From assembly GCF_054482525.1 (NCBI RefSeq), contig NZ_CM137006.1: a stretch of 64,000 nucleotides of DNA; one strand, 5' to 3'. Of this stretch, positions 39,903-45,892 are shown in pieces. The notes beneath the pieces were generated by a model. It ran no database searches and was not told the origin of the DNA. It worked only from the letters and a program-made list of their open reading frames with translations. The translations under genes were made by a program, and so were the position numbers. Each line of letters starts with the position of its first letter. Position 1 is the stretch's first letter.

Positions 39903-40657
<755 letters not shown>

Positions 40658-40761
40658 ATCAGCATACTTGTCCTTAGCCTTCTGCAGTGACAGCTGGTAG
40701 TACAGCGTGCTTCTGGCCAGCCCTGCAGCCTTTAACAGGTCAGACTGGCAGTGTCCGCACC

Positions 40762-41292
40762 TCAGGCTCCGGATGACTTTCGTTTTTTCTCCAGCTCCTG
40801 GCGCTTTTTTTCCAGGAGATGCTCCTGCATGGCTTTCAGATATGCATTTTCTGCGCGAAGATAACGCAGCTCATTCTTCATCTCTTCCGGCGTCATGTTT
40901 GCCTCGTTTTCATGGGTATCATCAGAACGGGTCATGCTTTTCTCCTTCCTGCGCCTGATAAAGGCCTCATTACCAGATTTGCGGTAGCCTTTTATCCAGT
41001 TTTTAACCGTGTTGTGGCTGGGAATGTTAAACCGGGCAGCTACCCGGGGTAGAGACTCAGAATGCCCGAGAGCATAAAGAACCACGCAAAGTTTATCTTC
41101 AGGAGAATAGCTACGCTTGTGTCTGCAATCCAGTGCCCGAGGACCGTGAAGAAGAAAAAGATTAATCCAGTGTGAGAGGCTGGTGTGAGAAAGTTGAAAG
41201 AGTTTTGCCGTAGAAATGATGCCTGCATGACCAGCCAGGTAGTGATTTACAGCGGCAAGTTTTACTTCAAATGAATGTTTCATAAACTGCAC
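40762..41292 (-). CDS. IS3-family transposase OrfA (HTH plus leucine zipper)
   Basis: 176-aa ORF; ends over ggaaaaaaagcg (A7G) frameshift motif near 40805-40815. Confidence 0.8.
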   Translation of the reverse strand: MQFMKHSFEVKLAAVNHYLAGHAGIISTAKLFQLSHTSLSHWINLFLLHGPRALDCRHKRSYSPEDKLCVVLYALGHSESLPRVAARFNIPSHNTVKNWIKGYRKSGNEAFIRRRKEKSMTRSDDTHENEANMTPEEMKNELRYLRAENAYLKAMQEHLLEKKRQELEKKRKSSGA

Positions 41293-41334
41293 CTTCAGAT
41301 GTCAGATTATGTCCAACATTTGGGGTGCAGTTCA

Positions 41335-41440
41335 GTTTACGCCGCATCCGGCGGTTATGCGCTGATGCCTGATGCGGCGCGGGCGCGTCTTATCATGCCT
41401 GGAAGTCTGCGCCCGAATCGTAGGCCGCCTCCGCTATATT
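41335..41440. repeat. REP/BIME cluster, right part
   Basis: gtttacgccgcatccggcg..., gcctgatgcggcgc..., cgaatcgtaggccg: several REP-like units. Confidence 0.65.
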
Positions 41441-41456
41441 AACTGGCATTGGCAAA

Positions 41457-41819
41457 TTACTCGTCACTACCTTTATTCATGTTTTTTTGGTCTTCATCCG
41501 GATAATGTTTTTTTAGATATTCCAGGACGTTTTTATTGACCTTGTGTTGCGTATACACCCACCCTTTCCAGTAATCAGGCTGGTCCAGGTAAACTTCTGG
41601 CGGAATGGTGAAATCAGAAAGCGTTAACCATTCGGCTAACAGATCGGGGTTTCGTTTCTGGATTAACTGCAACAGCATAATCAGTGACATAGCTGAGGCA
41701 GGAGCCGTACTATCACCACTCAAATATTTCCACACTGTTGACCGGTTCGAACGAAAAAGGATCGGTAGCAATGCCCGGTCCAGATTCATTTCATTAAAAA
41801 TCTTCTCAAATTCATTCAT
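41457..41819 (-). CDS. hypothetical protein (120 aa), not in K-12 map
   Basis: ORF MNEFEKIFNEMNLDRALLPILFRSNRSTVWKYLSGDSTAPASAMSL...; AT-rich context; divergent from the adjacent outer-membrane protein gene. No function assigned. Confidence 0.5.
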   Translation of the reverse strand: MNEFEKIFNEMNLDRALLPILFRSNRSTVWKYLSGDSTAPASAMSLIMLLQLIQKRNPDLLAEWLTLSDFTIPPEVYLDQPDYWKGWVYTQHKVNKNVLEYLKKHYPDEDQKNMNKGSDE

Positions 41820-42167
41820 TTAAATTTTCCTGCCTGGCGTAAACCTCTTAAAAATTGAGATTTATCAAAGAAACGCATTTTAGCACACATCAGGAACCGC
41901 TTCACGTTTAGTCCAGAAACAGAATTTATTTCGCTTATCAAAACAAGTCTTTACTCTTTTTTACATTGAAAGAGCACAAAATGATTTTCTATTTTATTTA
42001 TATAAGAAACATTTTTTGTTTCTTATTGGTGGTGTTTACGCTTACACCAAACAAAAATGCGCTTTACATCACACAAATGGCGGCGTAGATTTCGATCAAA
42101 TTGCAACGCAGATTAATTCTTATAACAACGTTTTACGTTGCTTATAGAAACAAATATGTGACTTACT

Positions 42168-43601
42168 TTGAAAGAGAAAAAATGCATGAAAACTGTAAAG
42201 CTGTCTTTACTGGCTGTCGTTGTTGCTACCGCGGTAAGTCCATCTGCGTTTGCGGGTGATACTGTTGAGGCGGCAACGACAGAATTAACGGCAATCCAGC
42301 CAGGAATGTCGCAATCGGAAATTGATCAGAAAATTGGTCGATTTTTAGAAAGGACAGGGAATAGTGCAGCCGCACAAAATTATCTGATTGCGCATGATTA
42401 CCGGACAACGACACCTCAGGAAAATACAGCTGCTTCTCCCGTACAGCCCACCAATACGCTGAACCCGATAACCAATCAAGCGCAGACCGACCGCGACAAC
42501 GGGCAGGATACCGCCATTCAGGACGCACAACATGCCGCCAACTGGGCTTCAATGAAAGCTGATGACGCGCAGCACGCCATTATGGTGGCGCAGACGGATA
42601 TTGATGCCAATAAAGCCGCCATCGCCGACACCCGTAATGATGTCTCCGCAGTGCAGTCAGACGTCACCAACATAAAAGGCGATGTCGCACATGCCCAGTC
42701 AACGGCTGACCATGCCAACGCTAACGCCAACGCCGCTCTGATGAACGGCGTCAAACTTTCCGGTGCTGTGACAGAAAACAAAAATAATATCGAACAGAAC
42801 CGCAGCGATATTGCTGACCAGCAGCAACAACTCGACGAAACCCGGAAAACCGTTGCCGCCACCGGTGATGTACAGACTGCCGCCCGATATCAGAGCATGA
42901 TTGACGCCAGACAGACTGCTGCTGCCAATGCGCAACAGGAACAAGCGGACACCCAGCAGCAACAAATGGACGATCAGCAGAAACAAATCGACGCGACGCA
43001 AAAAACGGTTTCCGCACTTGGCGATGACCAGACCAACGCACATTATCAAGAGATGGTTAACGCCGAACTGAGAGCACAAAATGATGCGAATGCGCGTACT
43101 GCAGCAGAACAAAAACAAAAAATAGATACTCTGGCGACTAACCAGGCAACACAACAGCATATCGATAGTGTGCAGTACGGGGAACAAATTCAGCGTCTGG
43201 CGCAAGACTCAACACAAACGCATGAACAAATTGACAGCCTGACACAAGACGTAACCCAAACGCATCAGCAGTTAAGCAACACGCAAAAACGAGTAGCGGA
43301 TAATAGCCAGCAGATTACTACGCTCAATAACCATTTCAGTTCGCTGAAAAACGAAGTTGAGGACAACCGTAAAGAAGCCAATGCGGGAACTGCATCAGCC
43401 ATCGCTATCGCCTCACAACCACAGGTGAAAGCCGGTGACTTTATGATGATGTCAGCGGGAGCGGGAACCTTCAACGGTGAATCTGCGGTGTCTGTCGGAA
43501 CATCTTTTAATGCCGGAACGCATACCGTGATTAAAGCCGGTGTCTCTGCGGATACGCAATCTGATTTCGGCGCGGGTGTCGGCGTGGGATATTCTTTCTA
43601 A
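42168..43601 (+). CDS. putative secreted coiled-coil protein with YadA-like C-terminal membrane anchor (trimeric-autotransporter-like)
   Basis: Signal peptide (MKTVKLSLLAVVVATAVSPSAFA; start may be 42186), Gln/Ala-rich heptad-like central region, C-terminus ...AGTASAIAIASQPQV...GESAVSVGTSF...IKAGVS...GVGVGYSF resembling the YadA anchor (4 beta-strands ending in aromatic residue). Confidence 0.6.
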   Translation: MKEKKCMKTVKLSLLAVVVATAVSPSAFAGDTVEAATTELTAIQPGMSQSEIDQKIGRFLERTGNSAAAQNYLIAHDYRTTTPQENTAASPVQPTNTLNPITNQAQTDRDNGQDTAIQDAQHAANWASMKADDAQHAIMVAQTDIDANKAAIADTRNDVSAVQSDVTNIKGDVAHAQSTADHANANANAALMNGVKLSGAVTENKNNIEQNRSDIADQQQQLDETRKTVAATGDVQTAARYQSMIDARQTAAANAQQEQADTQQQQMDDQQKQIDATQKTVSALGDDQTNAHYQEMVNAELRAQNDANARTAAEQKQKIDTLATNQATQQHIDSVQYGEQIQRLAQDSTQTHEQIDSLTQDVTQTHQQLSNTQKRVADNSQQITTLNNHFSSLKNEVEDNRKEANAGTASAIAIASQPQVKAGDFMMMSAGAGTFNGESAVSVGTSFNAGTHTVIKAGVSADTQSDFGAGVGVGYSF

Positions 43602-43686
43602 TATTCCAATCCTCAATATAAATAAGAGCAAGGAAGCTTGCCGGGTTTCACCTCTTCATTAATTTGTACATTATTTAAGGTTAACA

Positions 43687-44109
43687 ATGATGAATAGCTC
43701 CATTAAATCGTTTTCCCTGCTGGCGGTTATATTACTGGCTGGCTGTAGTTCACCCACTTCCCGCATCGCAGATTGCCAGGCGCAGGGCGTCAGCCATGAC
43801 ACCTGTTATCTCGCAGAACAACAGCGTCAGACGGCTATTTTAAGTGCATCCGAGGCGCAGGCATTTAAAAATGCAGAAGCCGCACAACATGCCCAGGCCG
43901 CTAAAAAATCTATTTATAAAGGATTTGGCATGACCTTTAGAATGAGCAGTAAGAACTTTGCTTATCTCAATGATTCATTATGTGCAATTGATGAAGACAA
44001 TAAAGATGCCACTGTTTATCAGTCAGGTCTTTATAACGTCATTGTTTATCACCACACGGGAAAAGTCGCCTTAATGAAGGAAGGTCAGTTTGTGGGTTAT
44101 TTAAAATGA
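43687..44109 (+). CDS. hypothetical lipoprotein (140 aa)
   Basis: Signal peptide with lipobox LLAGC; several Cys; no recognised family. Confidence 0.55.
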   Translation: MMNSSIKSFSLLAVILLAGCSSPTSRIADCQAQGVSHDTCYLAEQQRQTAILSASEAQAFKNAEAAQHAQAAKKSIYKGFGMTFRMSSKNFAYLNDSLCAIDEDNKDATVYQSGLYNVIVYHHTGKVALMKEGQFVGYLK

Positions 44110-44309
44110 AGGAGCAAAGGAAAATCCCCCTGACGCATATTATGATTATCGGTGCGTTTATTTTTGCCTTCTTGCAAGTGGTGTTATTAGCCTCCCTGGT
44201 TCACGCTGTGAATGTTAACAACGAAATCCAGGAAGGCTTATTTCAATCGGGGCGCATAATGGTAGAAAGTTTGCAGCATATTCTTTCGGTGCAAACGGGG
44301 ATTAACTGA
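44106..44309 (+). CDS. hypothetical small membrane protein (67 aa)
   Basis: ATGA start/stop overlap with preceding lipoprotein gene; one predicted TM helix (IMIIGAFIFAFLQVVLLASLV). Confidence 0.45.
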   Translation: MKEQRKIPLTHIMIIGAFIFAFLQVVLLASLVHAVNVNNEIQEGLFQSGRIMVESLQHILSVQTGIN

Positions 44310-44312
44310 TTT

Positions 44313-44720
44313 TCACCCCGCCCGATGATGACAGCAGCCGGAGAGATTTTCGATAATCGGGCAGTCGGCGCTGTCATCACCAGGGCAGGCATTCGCCAGC
44401 GCCAGTAGCTGGTCGCGCATGGATTGCAGCTCCTCAATGTGCCGTTCGATCTCCGCTACCTTCTCCAGCGTGCGCCGTTTTACATCGGCGCTGTGACGCT
44501 GTGGGTCGTTAAACAGATTCACCAGTTCGCCGCTCTCTTCCAGGTTAAAGCCCACCTGGCGCGCCTGGCGCAGTAAGGTCAGTTCGTTGAGATGCTGCTG
44601 CGTGTAGGTTCGATAACCATTTTCGCTGCGCATCGGCGGCGTCACCAGCCCCTTCTCTTCATAGAAGCGAATGGCTTTGCTGGTCAGGCCGGTAATTTTT
44701 GCTACATCGCTAATGTTCAT
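44313..44720 (-). CDS. cueR: MerR-family copper-responsive regulator
   Basis: 135-aa [32 protein letters not shown]... with C-terminal metal-binding Cys pair (CPGDDSADC). Confidence 0.9.
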
Positions 44721-45892
44721 CGTTCGCGCAACGCCTCCTGTGCTTTATTAAAGGGTTTCAACAGATAATCCAGCACGCTTTTTTTGCCGGTGCGGATATC
44801 GACCGTCGCCACCATACCGGGGAATATCGGAAACTGCTGTTTATGTTTATTTTCCAGATGGTTGCTGAAAGTGCGAATGTACACCCGATAGTAATAAACA
44901 TCGCGCCGCACTTCATCCTGCACGGTGTCTGGTGATATCACCGCCACTTCTCCCGGCAGGCCGCCGTAGATGGAGTAATCGTAGGCGGTTATTTTCACCA
45001 GCGATTTTTGCCCCGGGTGGATAAACGCCACATCGCGCGGGGAGATTTTTGCCTCAATCAGCAGTTGCTCATCCAGCGGCACGATGGTCATCAGTTTACC
45101 ACCGGGGGCAATGACGCCGCCAACCGTGGTGACGTCAATGTCCTGAACAATGCCTCGCACCGGCGCGGTAAAGTTGAGCCTGGTGAGGGAGTCTTCCCGT
45201 CCACGGATCACCGAACGCTGGGTTTCTACTTCCGCATTGGCTTTCGCTAACTCTTCCCGCGCCTGTACGTAGTATTGCGTGCGCACGTCGCTGAGTTTGT
45301 TTTCCAGTTCATTGGCCTGGCGTTGCAGGCGCAGCACTTCAACGCTGCTCGCCGCCCCCTGTTTTACCAGCGGCTGGGTCATCGCCAGTTCGCGGTTGAC
45401 CAGGCTAATCCCCTGCGTCAGCCCGGTGGTGGCTTTGTTCAGCCCATCGCGGCGAGTGTTGTACAACGCCGTTTCCGACTCGATAAGTTCGGGGAATTTA
45501 TTCAGTTCGTCAGGGAAGACCAGCGGTTTATTACTCACTTCCGCCCGCAGCCGCGCCGAGGTTGCCAGCGCCGCGTACAGCCGCGACATTGCTTCCTGGA
45601 CGTCGGATTCCGTTTTGGTGCGGTTAAGCTGCGCCAGCGGCTGGCCCTGTTCAACAATATCGCCAACCTTGACGTCGAGATGATACAGAATTCCGCCTTC
45701 CAGCGACTGCACCACCTGTTCGCGCCCGGAAGGTTCTACCGTGCCGCTGCCGGTGGTGACTTCATCAAGCTGGAAGTACCACGCCCAGCCGAGAAAACAG
45801 AGCAGCATCACAGAGGTAACGCGTACCGCCAGCGCCGAACGCGGCAGGCGGGGTTCAGTCAGGCCACGGTTGTATTGCAGTTGTCCGTTCAT
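44717..45892 (-). CDS. type I secretion membrane-fusion protein (HlyD family)
   Basis: 391-aa ORF with N-terminal TM, long coiled-coil and C-terminal beta domain typical of HlyD/LapC; 4-bp overlaps with ABC gene upstream and cueR downstream. Confidence 0.85.

What the first reader, a model, noticed from the sequence alone, without database searches (positions are those of the whole stretch)
42168..43601. Small YadA-anchor-type outer-membrane protein with Gln-rich coiled coil
The 477-aa protein has a signal peptide, a long low-complexity Q/A/D/T-rich helical region with repeated motifs (e.g. DDQTNAHYQEMV / GDVQTAARYQSMI; QTHEQIDSLTQDVTQTHQQL) and a C-terminus with the hallmark pattern of trimeric-autotransporter anchors. 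At this size it would be a short stalk-only adhesin, similar in layout to immunoglobulin-binding or autoagglutinating E. coli trimeric autotransporters. It sits next to the giant-adhesin locus, so the region may be an adhesion island.
Basis: partly seen in the sequence, partly recalled or inferred. Interest (0 to 1): 0.5.

Follow-up and report, generated by a model that had tools for sequence, protein, structure and literature searches.

The report
Headless trimeric autotransporter published as regulator GmrA
The gene encodes a real outer-membrane, YadA-anchor type fibre protein of E. coli, and it is the same gene that a 2018 paper named GmrA and described as a cytoplasmic transcription factor for flagella, a role its sequence does not fit.

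Summary
The ORF is real. Its likely start is the ATG at 42186, giving 471 aa rather than 477. It has a Sec signal peptide, a small N-terminal three-helix domain, a Pro/Thr-rich linker and about 310 residues of heptad coiled coil. It ends in a YadA_anchor domain (Pfam E=3e-11; best fold matches Hia and YadA anchors). The trimeric-autotransporter reading therefore holds.

The window is E. coli and matches strain PCN033 at 100% identity here. The gene lies in O-island 29, between ybbJ and cueR. Published primers map exactly onto the O157:H7 allele, so this gene is z0639, named gmrA. Yang et al. 2018 reported it as a transcriptional activator that binds the fliA promoter.

I found no significant DNA-binding domain. 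The mature protein is strongly acidic (pI 4.6). The published tags sit before the signal peptide and after the terminal barrel residue.

Alleles range from 338 to 825 aa through duplication of stalk modules. The gene travels with a lipoprotein and a 67-aa membrane protein, and similar cassettes occur in other Enterobacteriaceae.

It is not Eib or Saa, and it does not form one island with the giant adhesin. It is an ordinary kind of protein; the interest lies in the conflict with the literature.

The parts
42186..43601 (+). Coding sequence of the trimeric-autotransporter-type protein: 471 aa plus stop. It is the long allele of z0639/gmrA of E. coli O157:H7 O-island 29.
   Evidence: ORF. Start inferred. 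RefSeq calls it 'YadA-like family protein'. Published gmrA primer arms flank it: the gmrA_F arm maps at 43602-43639, directly after the stop. BLASTP to the O157 allele gives 75% identity over residues 217-471.
42186..42254 (+). Sec signal peptide, residues 1-23 (MKTVKLSLLAVVVATAVSPSAFA, predicted cleavage before G24).
   Evidence: Read directly from the sequence: basic n-region, 12-residue hydrophobic core, A-F-A at -3 to -1. The pattern is kept in homologues of 30-50% identity. AF2 places a helix at residues 6-16.
42255..42401 (+). Small N-terminal domain, residues 24-72, predicted as three helices. It would sit at the distal tip of the fibre. Its fold family is unknown.
   Evidence: AF2 helices at 27-35, 43-57 and 61-69, pLDDT about 77-83. 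Seventeen invariant positions in five homologues, down to 44% identity. Found only on TAAs of this family. No PDB or Pfam match.
42402..42491 (+). Pro/Thr/Gln/Asn-rich linker, residues 73-102, probably flexible.
   Evidence: AF2 gives no secondary structure for residues 70-96, with pLDDT 30-50. Sequence and length vary between homologues.
42474..43412 (+). Coiled-coil stalk, residues 97-409. It has polar core layers (Asn, Thr or Gln at position d). Two conserved interruptions lie at residues 225-242 and 277-294.
   Evidence: AF2 helices at 97-223, 236-277 and 281-409. Heptad periodicity z=6.4 and 5.8 against shuffles. The register is continuous into the anchor.
42492..42833 (+). Stalk module of about 115-120 aa (RDNGQDT...SDIADQQQQ). 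It is present once here, absent from the 338-aa O157:H7 allele, and present two to four or five times in alleles of 577-825 aa.
   Evidence: Protein sequences of the length variants. BLASTP against the O157 allele.
42858..43067 (+). Two copies of a family-specific stalk motif, [AS][AL]xGDxxxxxxYQxM[IV][DN]A, at residues 225-242 and 277-294. AF2 breaks the helix at both.
   Evidence: Coordinates. The motif recurs in homologues P0177, P0197, P0200 and P0203. AF2 shows low-confidence breaks at 224-235 and 278-280.
43419..43598 (+). YadA-type membrane anchor, residues 412-471: four beta-strands ending in ...GVGYSF.
   Evidence: Pfam PF03895 E=3.1e-11. PDB phmmer hits AtaA 9vnj (4e-7) and Hia 2gr7/3emo. 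AF2 strands at 420-429, 432-442, 448-458 and 465-470. Foldseek top hits are Hia 3emo/2gr7/2gr8 and YadA 2lme, probability 0.97-1.00. G401 in the preceding helix is invariant.
41820..42185 (.). AT-rich (32% G+C) divergent intergenic region that presumably holds the promoters of the TAA gene and of the upstream 120-aa gene.
   Evidence: Composition. Only weak sigma-70-like matches, no more than expected by chance. The published complementing fragment starts inside it, at 41867.
41457..41819 (-). Divergent 120-aa gene, the homologue of z0640. Possibly an XRE-type helix-turn-helix protein.
   Evidence: z0640 primer arm maps at 41820-41857. Three weak hits fall on the same region: MqsA_antitoxin E=0.12, Xre-like-HTH E=0.047 in one member, and HigA-2 in the PDB E=0.43. 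None is significant. Homologues sit upstream of related TAAs in L002, L004 and L013.
43687..44109 (+). 140-aa lipoprotein, the homologue of z0638. Lipobox LLAGC with Ser at +2, a conserved Cys pair, a long helix, and a C-terminal 8-stranded small beta-barrel.
44106..44309 (+). 67-aa protein with one predicted transmembrane helix. Its start overlaps the lipoprotein stop (ATGA).
   Evidence: ORF, overlap sequence. It follows the lipoprotein in L002, L004, L005, L008 and L013. Lipoprotein plus 67-aa gene are present in 1416 of 5426 E. coli genomes, against 1412 for the TAA.

Best explanation
The gene encodes a type Vc (trimeric autotransporter) outer-membrane fibre protein.

Shown by sequence and models:
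- a cleavable Sec signal peptide;
- an anchor of four beta-strands of the YadA/Hia type;
- a heptad coiled coil that runs without a break into that anchor.

Inferred from what is established for YadA and Hia:
- The protein crosses the inner membrane through Sec.
- Three chains contribute four strands each to a 12-stranded barrel that BAM inserts into the outer membrane.
- The passenger threads out through the pore from C to N and zips into a trimeric coiled coil.
- About 310 helical residues at about 0.15 nm each give a fibre of roughly 45 nm.
- Three copies of a small N-terminal helical domain hang from flexible linkers at the tip.

Stalk modules duplicate and delete, giving alleles of 338-825 aa. 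The passenger diverges much faster than the flanking genes. Both are expected of a surface-exposed protein whose reach and antigenicity vary.

The most likely role is as a surface adhesin, autoaggregation factor or host-factor-binding fibre. The ligand is unknown.

The published dependence of motility and fliA expression on this gene (named gmrA) is, in this reading, an indirect result of making or losing an envelope protein. It would not reflect DNA binding by the native protein.

Confidence is about 0.9 for the architecture and secretion route, about 0.4 for an adhesive or aggregative function, and about 0.6 that the motility effect is indirect.
For: - Anchor: YadA_anchor E=3.1e-11 over the whole model, and the same in the O157 allele, E=2.6e-11. 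PDB sequence hits are only to TAA anchors. AF2 gives a helix followed by four strands. The top four Foldseek hits are Hia and YadA anchors. G401 and the PQV motif are invariant across 17 family members. The protein ends in the aromatic residue Phe.
- Stalk: heptad periodicity z about 6.
- Signal peptide: kept in divergent homologues.
- Charge: mature protein pI 4.6 with net charge -25; O157 allele pI 4.7 with net charge -16.
- No DNA-binding domain: no significant hit in Pfam or NCBIfam. Only sub-threshold coiled-coil matches appear (SMC, DndD, Rad50, and TMF_DNA_bd at E=0.16).
- Length variation: modular length variants.
- Divergence: the TAA is 60-90% identical in 1060 of 1412 genomes, while the adjacent lipoprotein gene is at least 90% identical in all 1416.
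- Relatives: all full-length passenger relatives that were read and carry a C-terminus end in a YadA-type anchor, except P0204, an unrelated repeat protein.
- Published constructs: the primers show the His tag was placed upstream of the signal peptide and the 3xFLAG tag directly after the terminal GYSF. I infer that both would disturb normal targeting.
Against: - Yang et al. 2018 (PMC5826968) report that the purified protein shifts the fliA promoter but not flhDC or rpoS. They report 7.75-fold ChIP-qPCR enrichment of the fliA promoter.
- They also report loss of flagella and motility in the deletion mutant, rescue by the gene alone, the same phenotype in eight strains, and increased motility when the gene is expressed in K-12.
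- Deleting the whole island did not change adherence to HeLa or Caco-2 cells.
- No localisation data exist.
- Only a monomer could be modelled, at mean pLDDT 61.5.
- There is no recognisable ligand-binding head.
- I have no evidence for the pathway by which an envelope protein would raise fliA expression.
Confidence: 0.72

Rival explanations
1. As published: the product (GmrA) is a cytoplasmic transcriptional activator that binds the fliA promoter and switches on flagellar genes. The signal-peptide-like and anchor-like ends would be unused or incidental.
For: PMC5826968 reports EMSA with competition, ChIP-qPCR (7.75-fold), mutants and complementation, epistasis with fliA, conservation of the phenotype in eight strains, and a CDD-predicted 'DNA-binding domain'. 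Orthology of the window gene to z0639 is confirmed.
Against: - A full-length YadA_anchor is present in both alleles.
- The Sec signal peptide is conserved.
- The fold matches Hia and YadA anchors.
- No significant DNA-binding domain is found. The only candidates are sub-threshold coiled-coil matches: TMF_DNA_bd E=0.16, and SMC far below its cut-off.
- The net charge is -16 to -25.
- Duplicating 120-aa stalk modules is hard to reconcile with a sequence-specific regulator.
- Both tagged constructs place tags where they should block export or barrel assembly. The protein that was assayed was therefore probably mislocalised (inference).
Confidence: 0.08
2. The protein is a surface fibre as described, but its main biological output is signalling. 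The TAA, possibly with the lipoprotein and the 67-aa inner-membrane protein, changes an envelope pathway such as Rcs, Cpx or sigma-E, or a contact-sensing relay. That pathway in turn sets fliA and flagellar expression.
For: The motility phenotype is reproducible, can be complemented, and transfers to K-12 (PMC5826968). The three genes are inherited together: 1412 against 1416 genomes. The lipoprotein and the small membrane protein are translationally coupled. The cassette is syntenic in Pseudocitrobacter, Enterobacter and unnamed metagenomic contigs.
Against: Deleting z0638 (the lipoprotein) had no effect on motility, and the TAA gene alone complemented the island deletion (PMC5826968). Lipoprotein homologues also occur without any TAA in 4 of 9 informative contexts. 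Surface adhesins usually lower motility rather than raise it (background knowledge).
Confidence: 0.15
3. The protein is a coiled-coil host-factor binder of the Eib type, binding immunoglobulin or complement regulators along the stalk and giving serum resistance, rather than a cell adhesin.
For: In Eib proteins binding is a property of the stalk (background knowledge). PHROG 17426 'adhesin' matches residues 281-471 at E=2e-20. The lack of an adherence phenotype on epithelial cells (PMC5826968) is compatible with this.
Against: There is no sequence match to the EibD passenger structures. The gene is not on a prophage. The PHROG match covers only the C-terminal stalk and the anchor. No binding data exist.
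Confidence: 0.1
4. The motility phenotype comes from something other than the protein. Candidates are the AT-rich upstream DNA or an RNA carried on the complementing fragment, or polar or titration effects.
For: The complementing clone carries about 320 bp of 32% G+C upstream DNA.
Against: An IPTG-driven ORF-only construct was used for ChIP, and purified protein was used for the EMSA. No Rfam family reaches its threshold in 41300-44400. The phenotype was reproduced in many strains.
Confidence: 0.05

Closest known systems
[not shown]
   Same: Same locus (ybbJ | z0640 - z0639 - z0638 - 67 aa | cueR) and same gene. The published deletion, cloning, tagging and qPCR primers map onto the TAA coding sequence. 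PCN033, which is 100% identical to the window here, is listed in that paper as carrying the island. Identity is 75% over the C-terminal 255 residues and 50% over the N-terminal about 100 residues.
   Different: The window allele is 471 aa against 338 aa. It carries an extra stalk module of about 115-120 aa. The published functional label (transcription factor) disagrees with the architecture found here in both alleles.
YadA / Hia / AtaA membrane anchors (Pfam PF03895; PDB 2lme, 2gr7, 3emo, 9vnj)
   Same: The C-terminal 60-90 residues share a coiled-coil helix with a conserved Gly, four beta-strands and a terminal aromatic residue.
   Different: The passenger has no YadA-like head, neck, Trp-ring or other catalogued TAA head or connector domain.
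Eib immunoglobulin-binding proteins (e.g. EibD) and Saa of Shiga-toxin-producing E. coli
   Same: These are small E. coli TAAs of a few hundred residues in which a coiled-coil stalk makes up much of the passenger. Similarity is limited to the anchor and the stalk just before it.
   Different: Eib genes are prophage-borne and Saa is plasmid-borne, whereas this gene sits in a chromosomal islet. There is no match to the EibD passenger. Plasmid TAAs match only residues 346-471 or less, at 36-41% identity, with one at 60% over residues 381-471. This protein has no beta-roll head. It has a small helical tip domain on a flexible linker instead.
SadA-SadB (Salmonella/E. coli) and AtaA-TpgA (Acinetobacter): TAAs with a dedicated accessory protein (PMC3953254; PMC12523085)
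   Same: A TAA gene sits in an apparent operon with a small lipoprotein. In E. coli the two are inherited together.
UpaG / EhaG, the large chromosomal E. coli TAAs
   Same: Chromosomal E. coli TAAs with a YadA anchor.
   Different: Those proteins are more than 1500 aa with repeated head and neck domains (background knowledge). This one is headless. Its passenger family is very small: 36 representatives at E<=1e-3 among 1.84 billion proteins, many of them fragments.

Membership tests
Trimeric autotransporter (type Vc secretion) | C-terminal YadA-type membrane anchor domain (PF03895) | tested here: met
   E=3.1e-11, residues 412-471, model 1-60 of 60. PDB phmmer hits the AtaA and Hia anchors.
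Trimeric autotransporter (type Vc secretion) | Anchor made of four beta-strands per chain, ending in an aromatic residue | tested here: met
   AF2 strands at 420-429, 432-442, 448-458 and 465-470. The top four Foldseek hits are Hia 3emo/2gr7/2gr8 and YadA 2lme. The sequence ends ...GYSF.
Trimeric autotransporter (type Vc secretion) | N-terminal Sec signal peptide | tested here: met
   An n/h/c pattern with A-F-A before G24, read from the sequence. It is conserved in homologues of 30-50% identity. No dedicated predictor was available.
Trimeric autotransporter (type Vc secretion) | Coiled-coil stalk continuous with the anchor, with a conserved Gly in the pore-lining helix | tested here: met
   Heptad z=5.8 for residues 330-409, in one register up to the anchor. 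G401 is invariant in 17 sequences.
Trimeric autotransporter (type Vc secretion) | Homotrimer forming a 12-stranded barrel; surface exposure of the passenger | not testable with these tools
   Only single-chain AF2 was available. No localisation experiment has been published.
YadA/Eib/UpaG-type TAAs with a head | YadA-like head, neck, or Hep_Hag/HIM repeats | tested here: not met
   No such Pfam hit even at E<=10.
Eib immunoglobulin-binding proteins | Passenger homologous to EibD; prophage location | tested here: not met
   No PDB hit to EibD chains at E<=0.01. The locus lies between ybbJ and cueR with no phage genes. Phage records match only the last 24-37% of the protein.
Saa autoagglutinating adhesin | Plasmid-borne gene with a homologous passenger | tested here: not met
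   None of the 1540 E. coli DNA matches is on a plasmid. Protein matches on true plasmids cover only residues 346-471 or less.
GmrA 'transcriptional activator' (PMC5826968) | Orthology to z0639 of EDL933 | tested here: met
   Primer arms flank the coding sequence exactly in O157, with one arm directly after the stop in the window. Cloning, tagging and qPCR primers map in sense orientation onto the coding sequence. BLASTP E=1e-132.
GmrA 'transcriptional activator' (PMC5826968) | A recognisable DNA-binding domain | tested here: not met
   Pfam and NCBIfam give only sub-threshold coiled-coil hits: TMF_DNA_bd E=0.16, and SMC at 19-22 bits against cut-offs above 560. The N-terminal domain profile finds nothing in the PDB.
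GmrA 'transcriptional activator' (PMC5826968) | Specific binding to the fliA promoter by the native protein in the cytoplasm | not testable with these tools
   Reported for protein with an N-terminal His tag and a C-terminal 3xFLAG tag. The sequence predicts export (signal peptide) and a net charge of -16 to -25.
TAA helper proteins (SadB, TpgA), tested for the adjacent lipoprotein | Homology to SadB, or BamE/OmpA-like domains as in TpgA | tested here: not met
   [not shown]
TAA helper proteins (SadB, TpgA), tested for the adjacent lipoprotein | Consistent genomic association with a TAA | tested here: inconclusive
   Adjacent to a TAA in the window, L002, L003, L004/L005 and L013. No TAA nearby in L006, L007, L011 and L012. 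L008 is cut at the contig end. Within E. coli the association is nearly 1:1.

The most novel reading that the evidence does not exclude
The published motility phenotype is real and depends on the exported protein. A headless trimeric autotransporter, with or without its lipoprotein and 67-aa membrane partner, would then act as an envelope-to-cytoplasm signalling device that couples surface state to fliA and flagellar expression. The more extreme version is that a TAA-architecture protein truly moonlights as a DNA-binding regulator. Either would be a new function for type Vc proteins.
Probability: 0.1. Interest if true: 0.8.

Novelty: new member of a known kind. Interest (0 to 1): 0.5.

Why it matters
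The protein is an ordinary kind of thing, a trimeric autotransporter, and RefSeq already labels it 'YadA-like'. What matters is the mismatch with the literature.

- The same gene is cited as the horizontally acquired transcription factor GmrA in the original paper and in at least four later papers, three of them reviews (PMC5826968, PMC10877973, PMC9387321, PMC8565820, PMC9308461). None of the passages I read mentions that it has a signal peptide and an outer-membrane anchor.
- If the architecture is right, the model of direct fliA activation needs re-testing, and the motility phenotype needs another explanation.
- About a quarter of complete E. coli genomes carry an allele (1412 of 5426). These include O157:H7, O55:H7, O145:H28, and strains that the paper lists as carrying the island: UTI89, RS218, UMN026, 042 and PCN033.
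- The locus also offers a compact, naturally length-variable, headless TAA. It could be used to study how stalk length and a tethered tip domain affect surface function.
- It is a candidate, with weak support, for a third type of TAA-associated accessory gene set.

Tried and rejected
- Eib or Saa membership: rejected. There is no passenger similarity and the genomic setting is wrong.
- One 'adhesion island' with the SiiEA giant adhesin: rejected. cueR separates the two loci and their distributions differ.
- SadB/TpgA-like helper: the lipoprotein is unrelated to both. Strict guilt by association fails outside E. coli.
- TraV or XAC1346 chaperone for the lipoprotein: the hits are sub-threshold and cover only the signal peptide and Cys-rich N-terminus. 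Not pursued.
- Identity of the N-terminal domain: a profile of five homologues against PDB sequences found nothing below E=0.45, and Pfam found nothing. It could not be submitted to a fold search on its own.
- Phage or plasmid origin of the cassette: only anchor-level matches.
- RNA element in the locus: no Rfam family reaches its threshold.
- Promoter and terminator scan: no more sites than chance, and no + strand terminator between the TAA and the lipoprotein gene.
- Literature under UMN026 locus tags: nothing found.
- The full-length AF2 model is of low confidence (pLDDT 61.5). I used it only for secondary structure and the anchor match.
Full report
**1. The observation**

An ORF runs from 42168 to 43601 on the + strand. 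Most database copies start at the ATG at 42186 and are 471 aa. A weak GAGA-type ribosome-binding sequence precedes that ATG. In the O157:H7 allele an in-frame TGA lies directly before it.

The N-terminus, MKTVKLSLLAVVVATAVSPSAFA|G, has the layout of a Sec signal peptide. The mature protein is rich in Ala, Gln, Thr and Asp.

The heptad pattern is well beyond chance. It gives z=6.4 for residues 97-223 and z=5.8 for residues 330-409 against shuffles. Asn, Thr or Gln occupy many d positions.

**2. The trimeric-autotransporter call**

- Pfam finds a complete YadA_anchor domain at residues 412-471 (E=3.1e-11) and nothing else significant.
- A phmmer search of the PDB hits only TAA anchors: AtaA 9vnj and Hia 2gr7, 3emo and 2gr8.
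- AlphaFold2, run on an alignment of 17 family members, gives a signal helix and three short helices at residues 27-69 (pLDDT about 80). An unstructured stretch follows at residues 70-96. Long helices then span 97-223, 236-277 and 281-409, and four strands span 420-470.
- The four best Foldseek matches in the PDB are the Hia and YadA membrane anchors.
- G401 in the helix before the barrel and the PQV motif are invariant in the family alignment.
- No head, neck, Hep_Hag or HIM domain is detected.

The protein is therefore a headless TAA with a small helical domain at its tip. Trimer formation could not be modelled.

**3. Origin of the window and the neighbours**

The region is 100% identical to E. 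coli PCN033. The annotated order in PCN033 is as follows:

- qmcA, ybbJ;
- a 120-aa gene on the minus strand;
- the 'YadA-like family protein';
- a 140-aa protein;
- a 67-aa protein;
- cueR;
- a HlyD-type adaptor, a type I secretion ABC transporter, and siiEA.

In the window an IS3-family element (39935-41292) lies between ybbJ and the 120-aa gene. PCN033 lacks it.

RefSeq starts the PCN033 protein at Met47, which removes the signal peptide.

**4. The gene has a published name**

A related 338-aa 'YadA family autotransporter adhesin' occupies the same site in O157:H7. This site is O-island 29, which contains z0638, z0639 and z0640. Yang et al. 2018 (PMC5826968) named z0639 GmrA and described it as a transcriptional activator.

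Their findings:

- Deleting the island or the gene reduced flagella, motility and fliA, fliC and motA expression.
- The gene alone complemented the defect.
- Purified protein shifted the fliA promoter.
- ChIP-qPCR enriched the fliA promoter 7.75-fold.
- The phenotype was seen in eight strains.
- Deleting the island did not change adherence to HeLa or Caco-2 cells.

I mapped their primers, taken from their supplementary table:

- The gmrA deletion arms flank the O157 TAA coding sequence exactly (L009 3602-4618).
- The z0638 arms flank the lipoprotein gene, and the z0640 arms flank the 120-aa gene.
- The pET28a forward primer begins with ATGAAAACTGTAAACGTAGCTTTA, which encodes MKTVNVAL, the signal peptide.
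- The 3xFLAG reverse primer ends on the codons for GVGYSF, the last barrel strand.

The O157 protein has the same YadA_anchor hit (E=2.6e-11). It is 75% identical to the window protein over the C-terminal 255 residues and lacks the stalk module of about 115-120 aa. PCN033 is listed in that paper as carrying the island.

The window gene is therefore the long allele of gmrA.

**5. How the two readings compare**

Neither allele has a significant DNA-binding domain. The only candidates are weak coiled-coil matches:

- TMF_DNA_bd at E=0.16;
- SMC and DndD, far below their cut-offs.

I suspect that one of these lies behind the 'DNA-binding domain' the paper took from CDD. The figure is not held, so I could not check.

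The mature proteins are strongly acidic: pI 4.6-4.7, net charge -16 to -25.

The His tag was placed before the signal peptide, and the FLAG tag after the terminal aromatic residue. Both positions are expected to interfere with export or barrel assembly. This follows from established knowledge of Sec targeting and the C-terminal beta-signal.

None of the five papers that cite GmrA mentions the anchor in the passages I read.

I cannot judge the wet-lab data. The motility phenotype looks reproducible and still needs an explanation.

The one gene in the island with a hint of a helix-turn-helix is z0640. Three weak hits to XRE-type antitoxin HTH domains fall on the same 50 residues, and none is significant. 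Deleting z0640 had no effect on motility.

**6. Variation and distribution**

Counts among 5426 complete E. coli genomes:

| Feature | Genomes |
|---|---|
| Any allele of the TAA | 1412 |
| At least 80% of this allele | 249 |
| Lipoprotein plus 67-aa genes | 1416 |
| Type I secretion ABC transporter | 962 |

- Every copy of the lipoprotein plus 67-aa genes is at least 90% identical to the window.
- The TAA itself is only 60-90% identical in 1060 genomes.
- Strain LWY24 has the cassette but only a remnant of the type I system.

Allele lengths of 338, 426, 457, 459, 471, 497, 577-600, 702-717 and 825 aa arise from gain or loss of two stalk modules. One is about 120 aa, the other about 40 aa.

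Outside Escherichia and Shigella the passenger family is tiny. Only 36 representatives reach E<=1e-3 among 1.84 billion proteins, and many are fragments. The full-length members are modular Enterobacteriaceae TAAs that mix the same stalk segments. Some carry the same N-terminal domain.

**7. The cassette**

The 140-aa neighbour is a lipoprotein:

- a lipobox LLAGC with Ser at +2;
- a conserved Cys pair;
- a long helix;
- a confidently modelled 8-stranded barrel.

The 67-aa gene overlaps the lipoprotein stop codon.

The same arrangement, a 111-125-aa divergent gene followed by a TAA, the lipoprotein and a small protein, recurs in:

- Pseudocitrobacter faecalis;
- Enterobacter asburiae (TAA and lipoprotein only);
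- unnamed metagenomic contigs beside fetA and qmcA.

Four other lipoprotein homologues, at 42-49% identity to the window protein, stand alone. A dedicated helper role is therefore only a hypothesis.

The known helpers SadB and TpgA are unrelated. A 2026 survey that found no further helpers looked only at TAAs with a head domain.

**8. Verdict**

The comparison with Eib and Saa and the idea of a single island are not supported.

The best-supported mechanism is type Vc secretion of a trimeric coiled-coil fibre of about 45 nm, variable in length, with a small tethered tip domain. Its ligand is unknown. Its published role as a DNA-binding activator conflicts with every sequence feature I could test.

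The novelty is low as a kind of protein. The interest lies in the conflict with the literature, which can be settled by localisation and separation-of-function experiments.

Noticed in passing
window 39935-41292 (-): An IS3-family insertion sequence with two ORFs (transposase hit E=6e-89) lies between ybbJ and the z0640 homologue. The otherwise identical PCN033 locus lacks it. It interrupts no gene.
   Followed up: partly
L001 20972-22267 (PCN033, WP_225103924.1); window 42306: RefSeq starts the PCN033 copy of this protein at Met47 (431 aa), which removes the signal peptide. Most other database copies start at the MKTVKL methionine (471 aa), and a few at the upstream TTG (477 aa).
   Followed up: yes
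[not shown]
   Followed up: partly
window 41457-41819 (-): The divergent 120-aa gene (z0640 homologue) gives three independent but non-significant hits to XRE-type antitoxin HTH domains (MqsA, HigA-2, Xre-like-HTH) on residues 4-62. It is the only gene in the island with any HTH-like signal.
   Followed up: partly
L002 1801-3702 and 3706-5532 (Pseudocitrobacter faecalis CP174503.1): The related 633-aa TAA contains a collagen-like run of eight Gly-X-Y triplets (GDTGATGAAGKDGSNGKDGLNGKDG) inside its stalk. A second TAA-like gene follows it. That gene's anchor-like C-terminus gets no precomputed Pfam hit. A serine recombinase gene lies nearby.
   Followed up: no
window 44717-45892 (-); L001 23383-24557 and 26720 onward: In PCN033 the HlyD-type adaptor and the giant siiEA adhesin gene are annotated as frameshifted pseudogenes. 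In the window the adaptor ORF is intact at 391 aa. The state of siiEA in the window was not checked.
   Followed up: no
protein P0062 (metagenome contig, 721 aa): One database protein joins HMA and P-type ATPase domains (as in CopA) to a YadA anchor at 97% identity to this TAA. It is most likely an assembly or gene-calling chimera of neighbouring loci.
   Followed up: no
window 41340-41399 (+): A sub-threshold Rfam match to naRNA4 (27 bits against a gathering score of 59.5), just beyond the end of the IS element. It may be a REP-like repeat.
   Followed up: no
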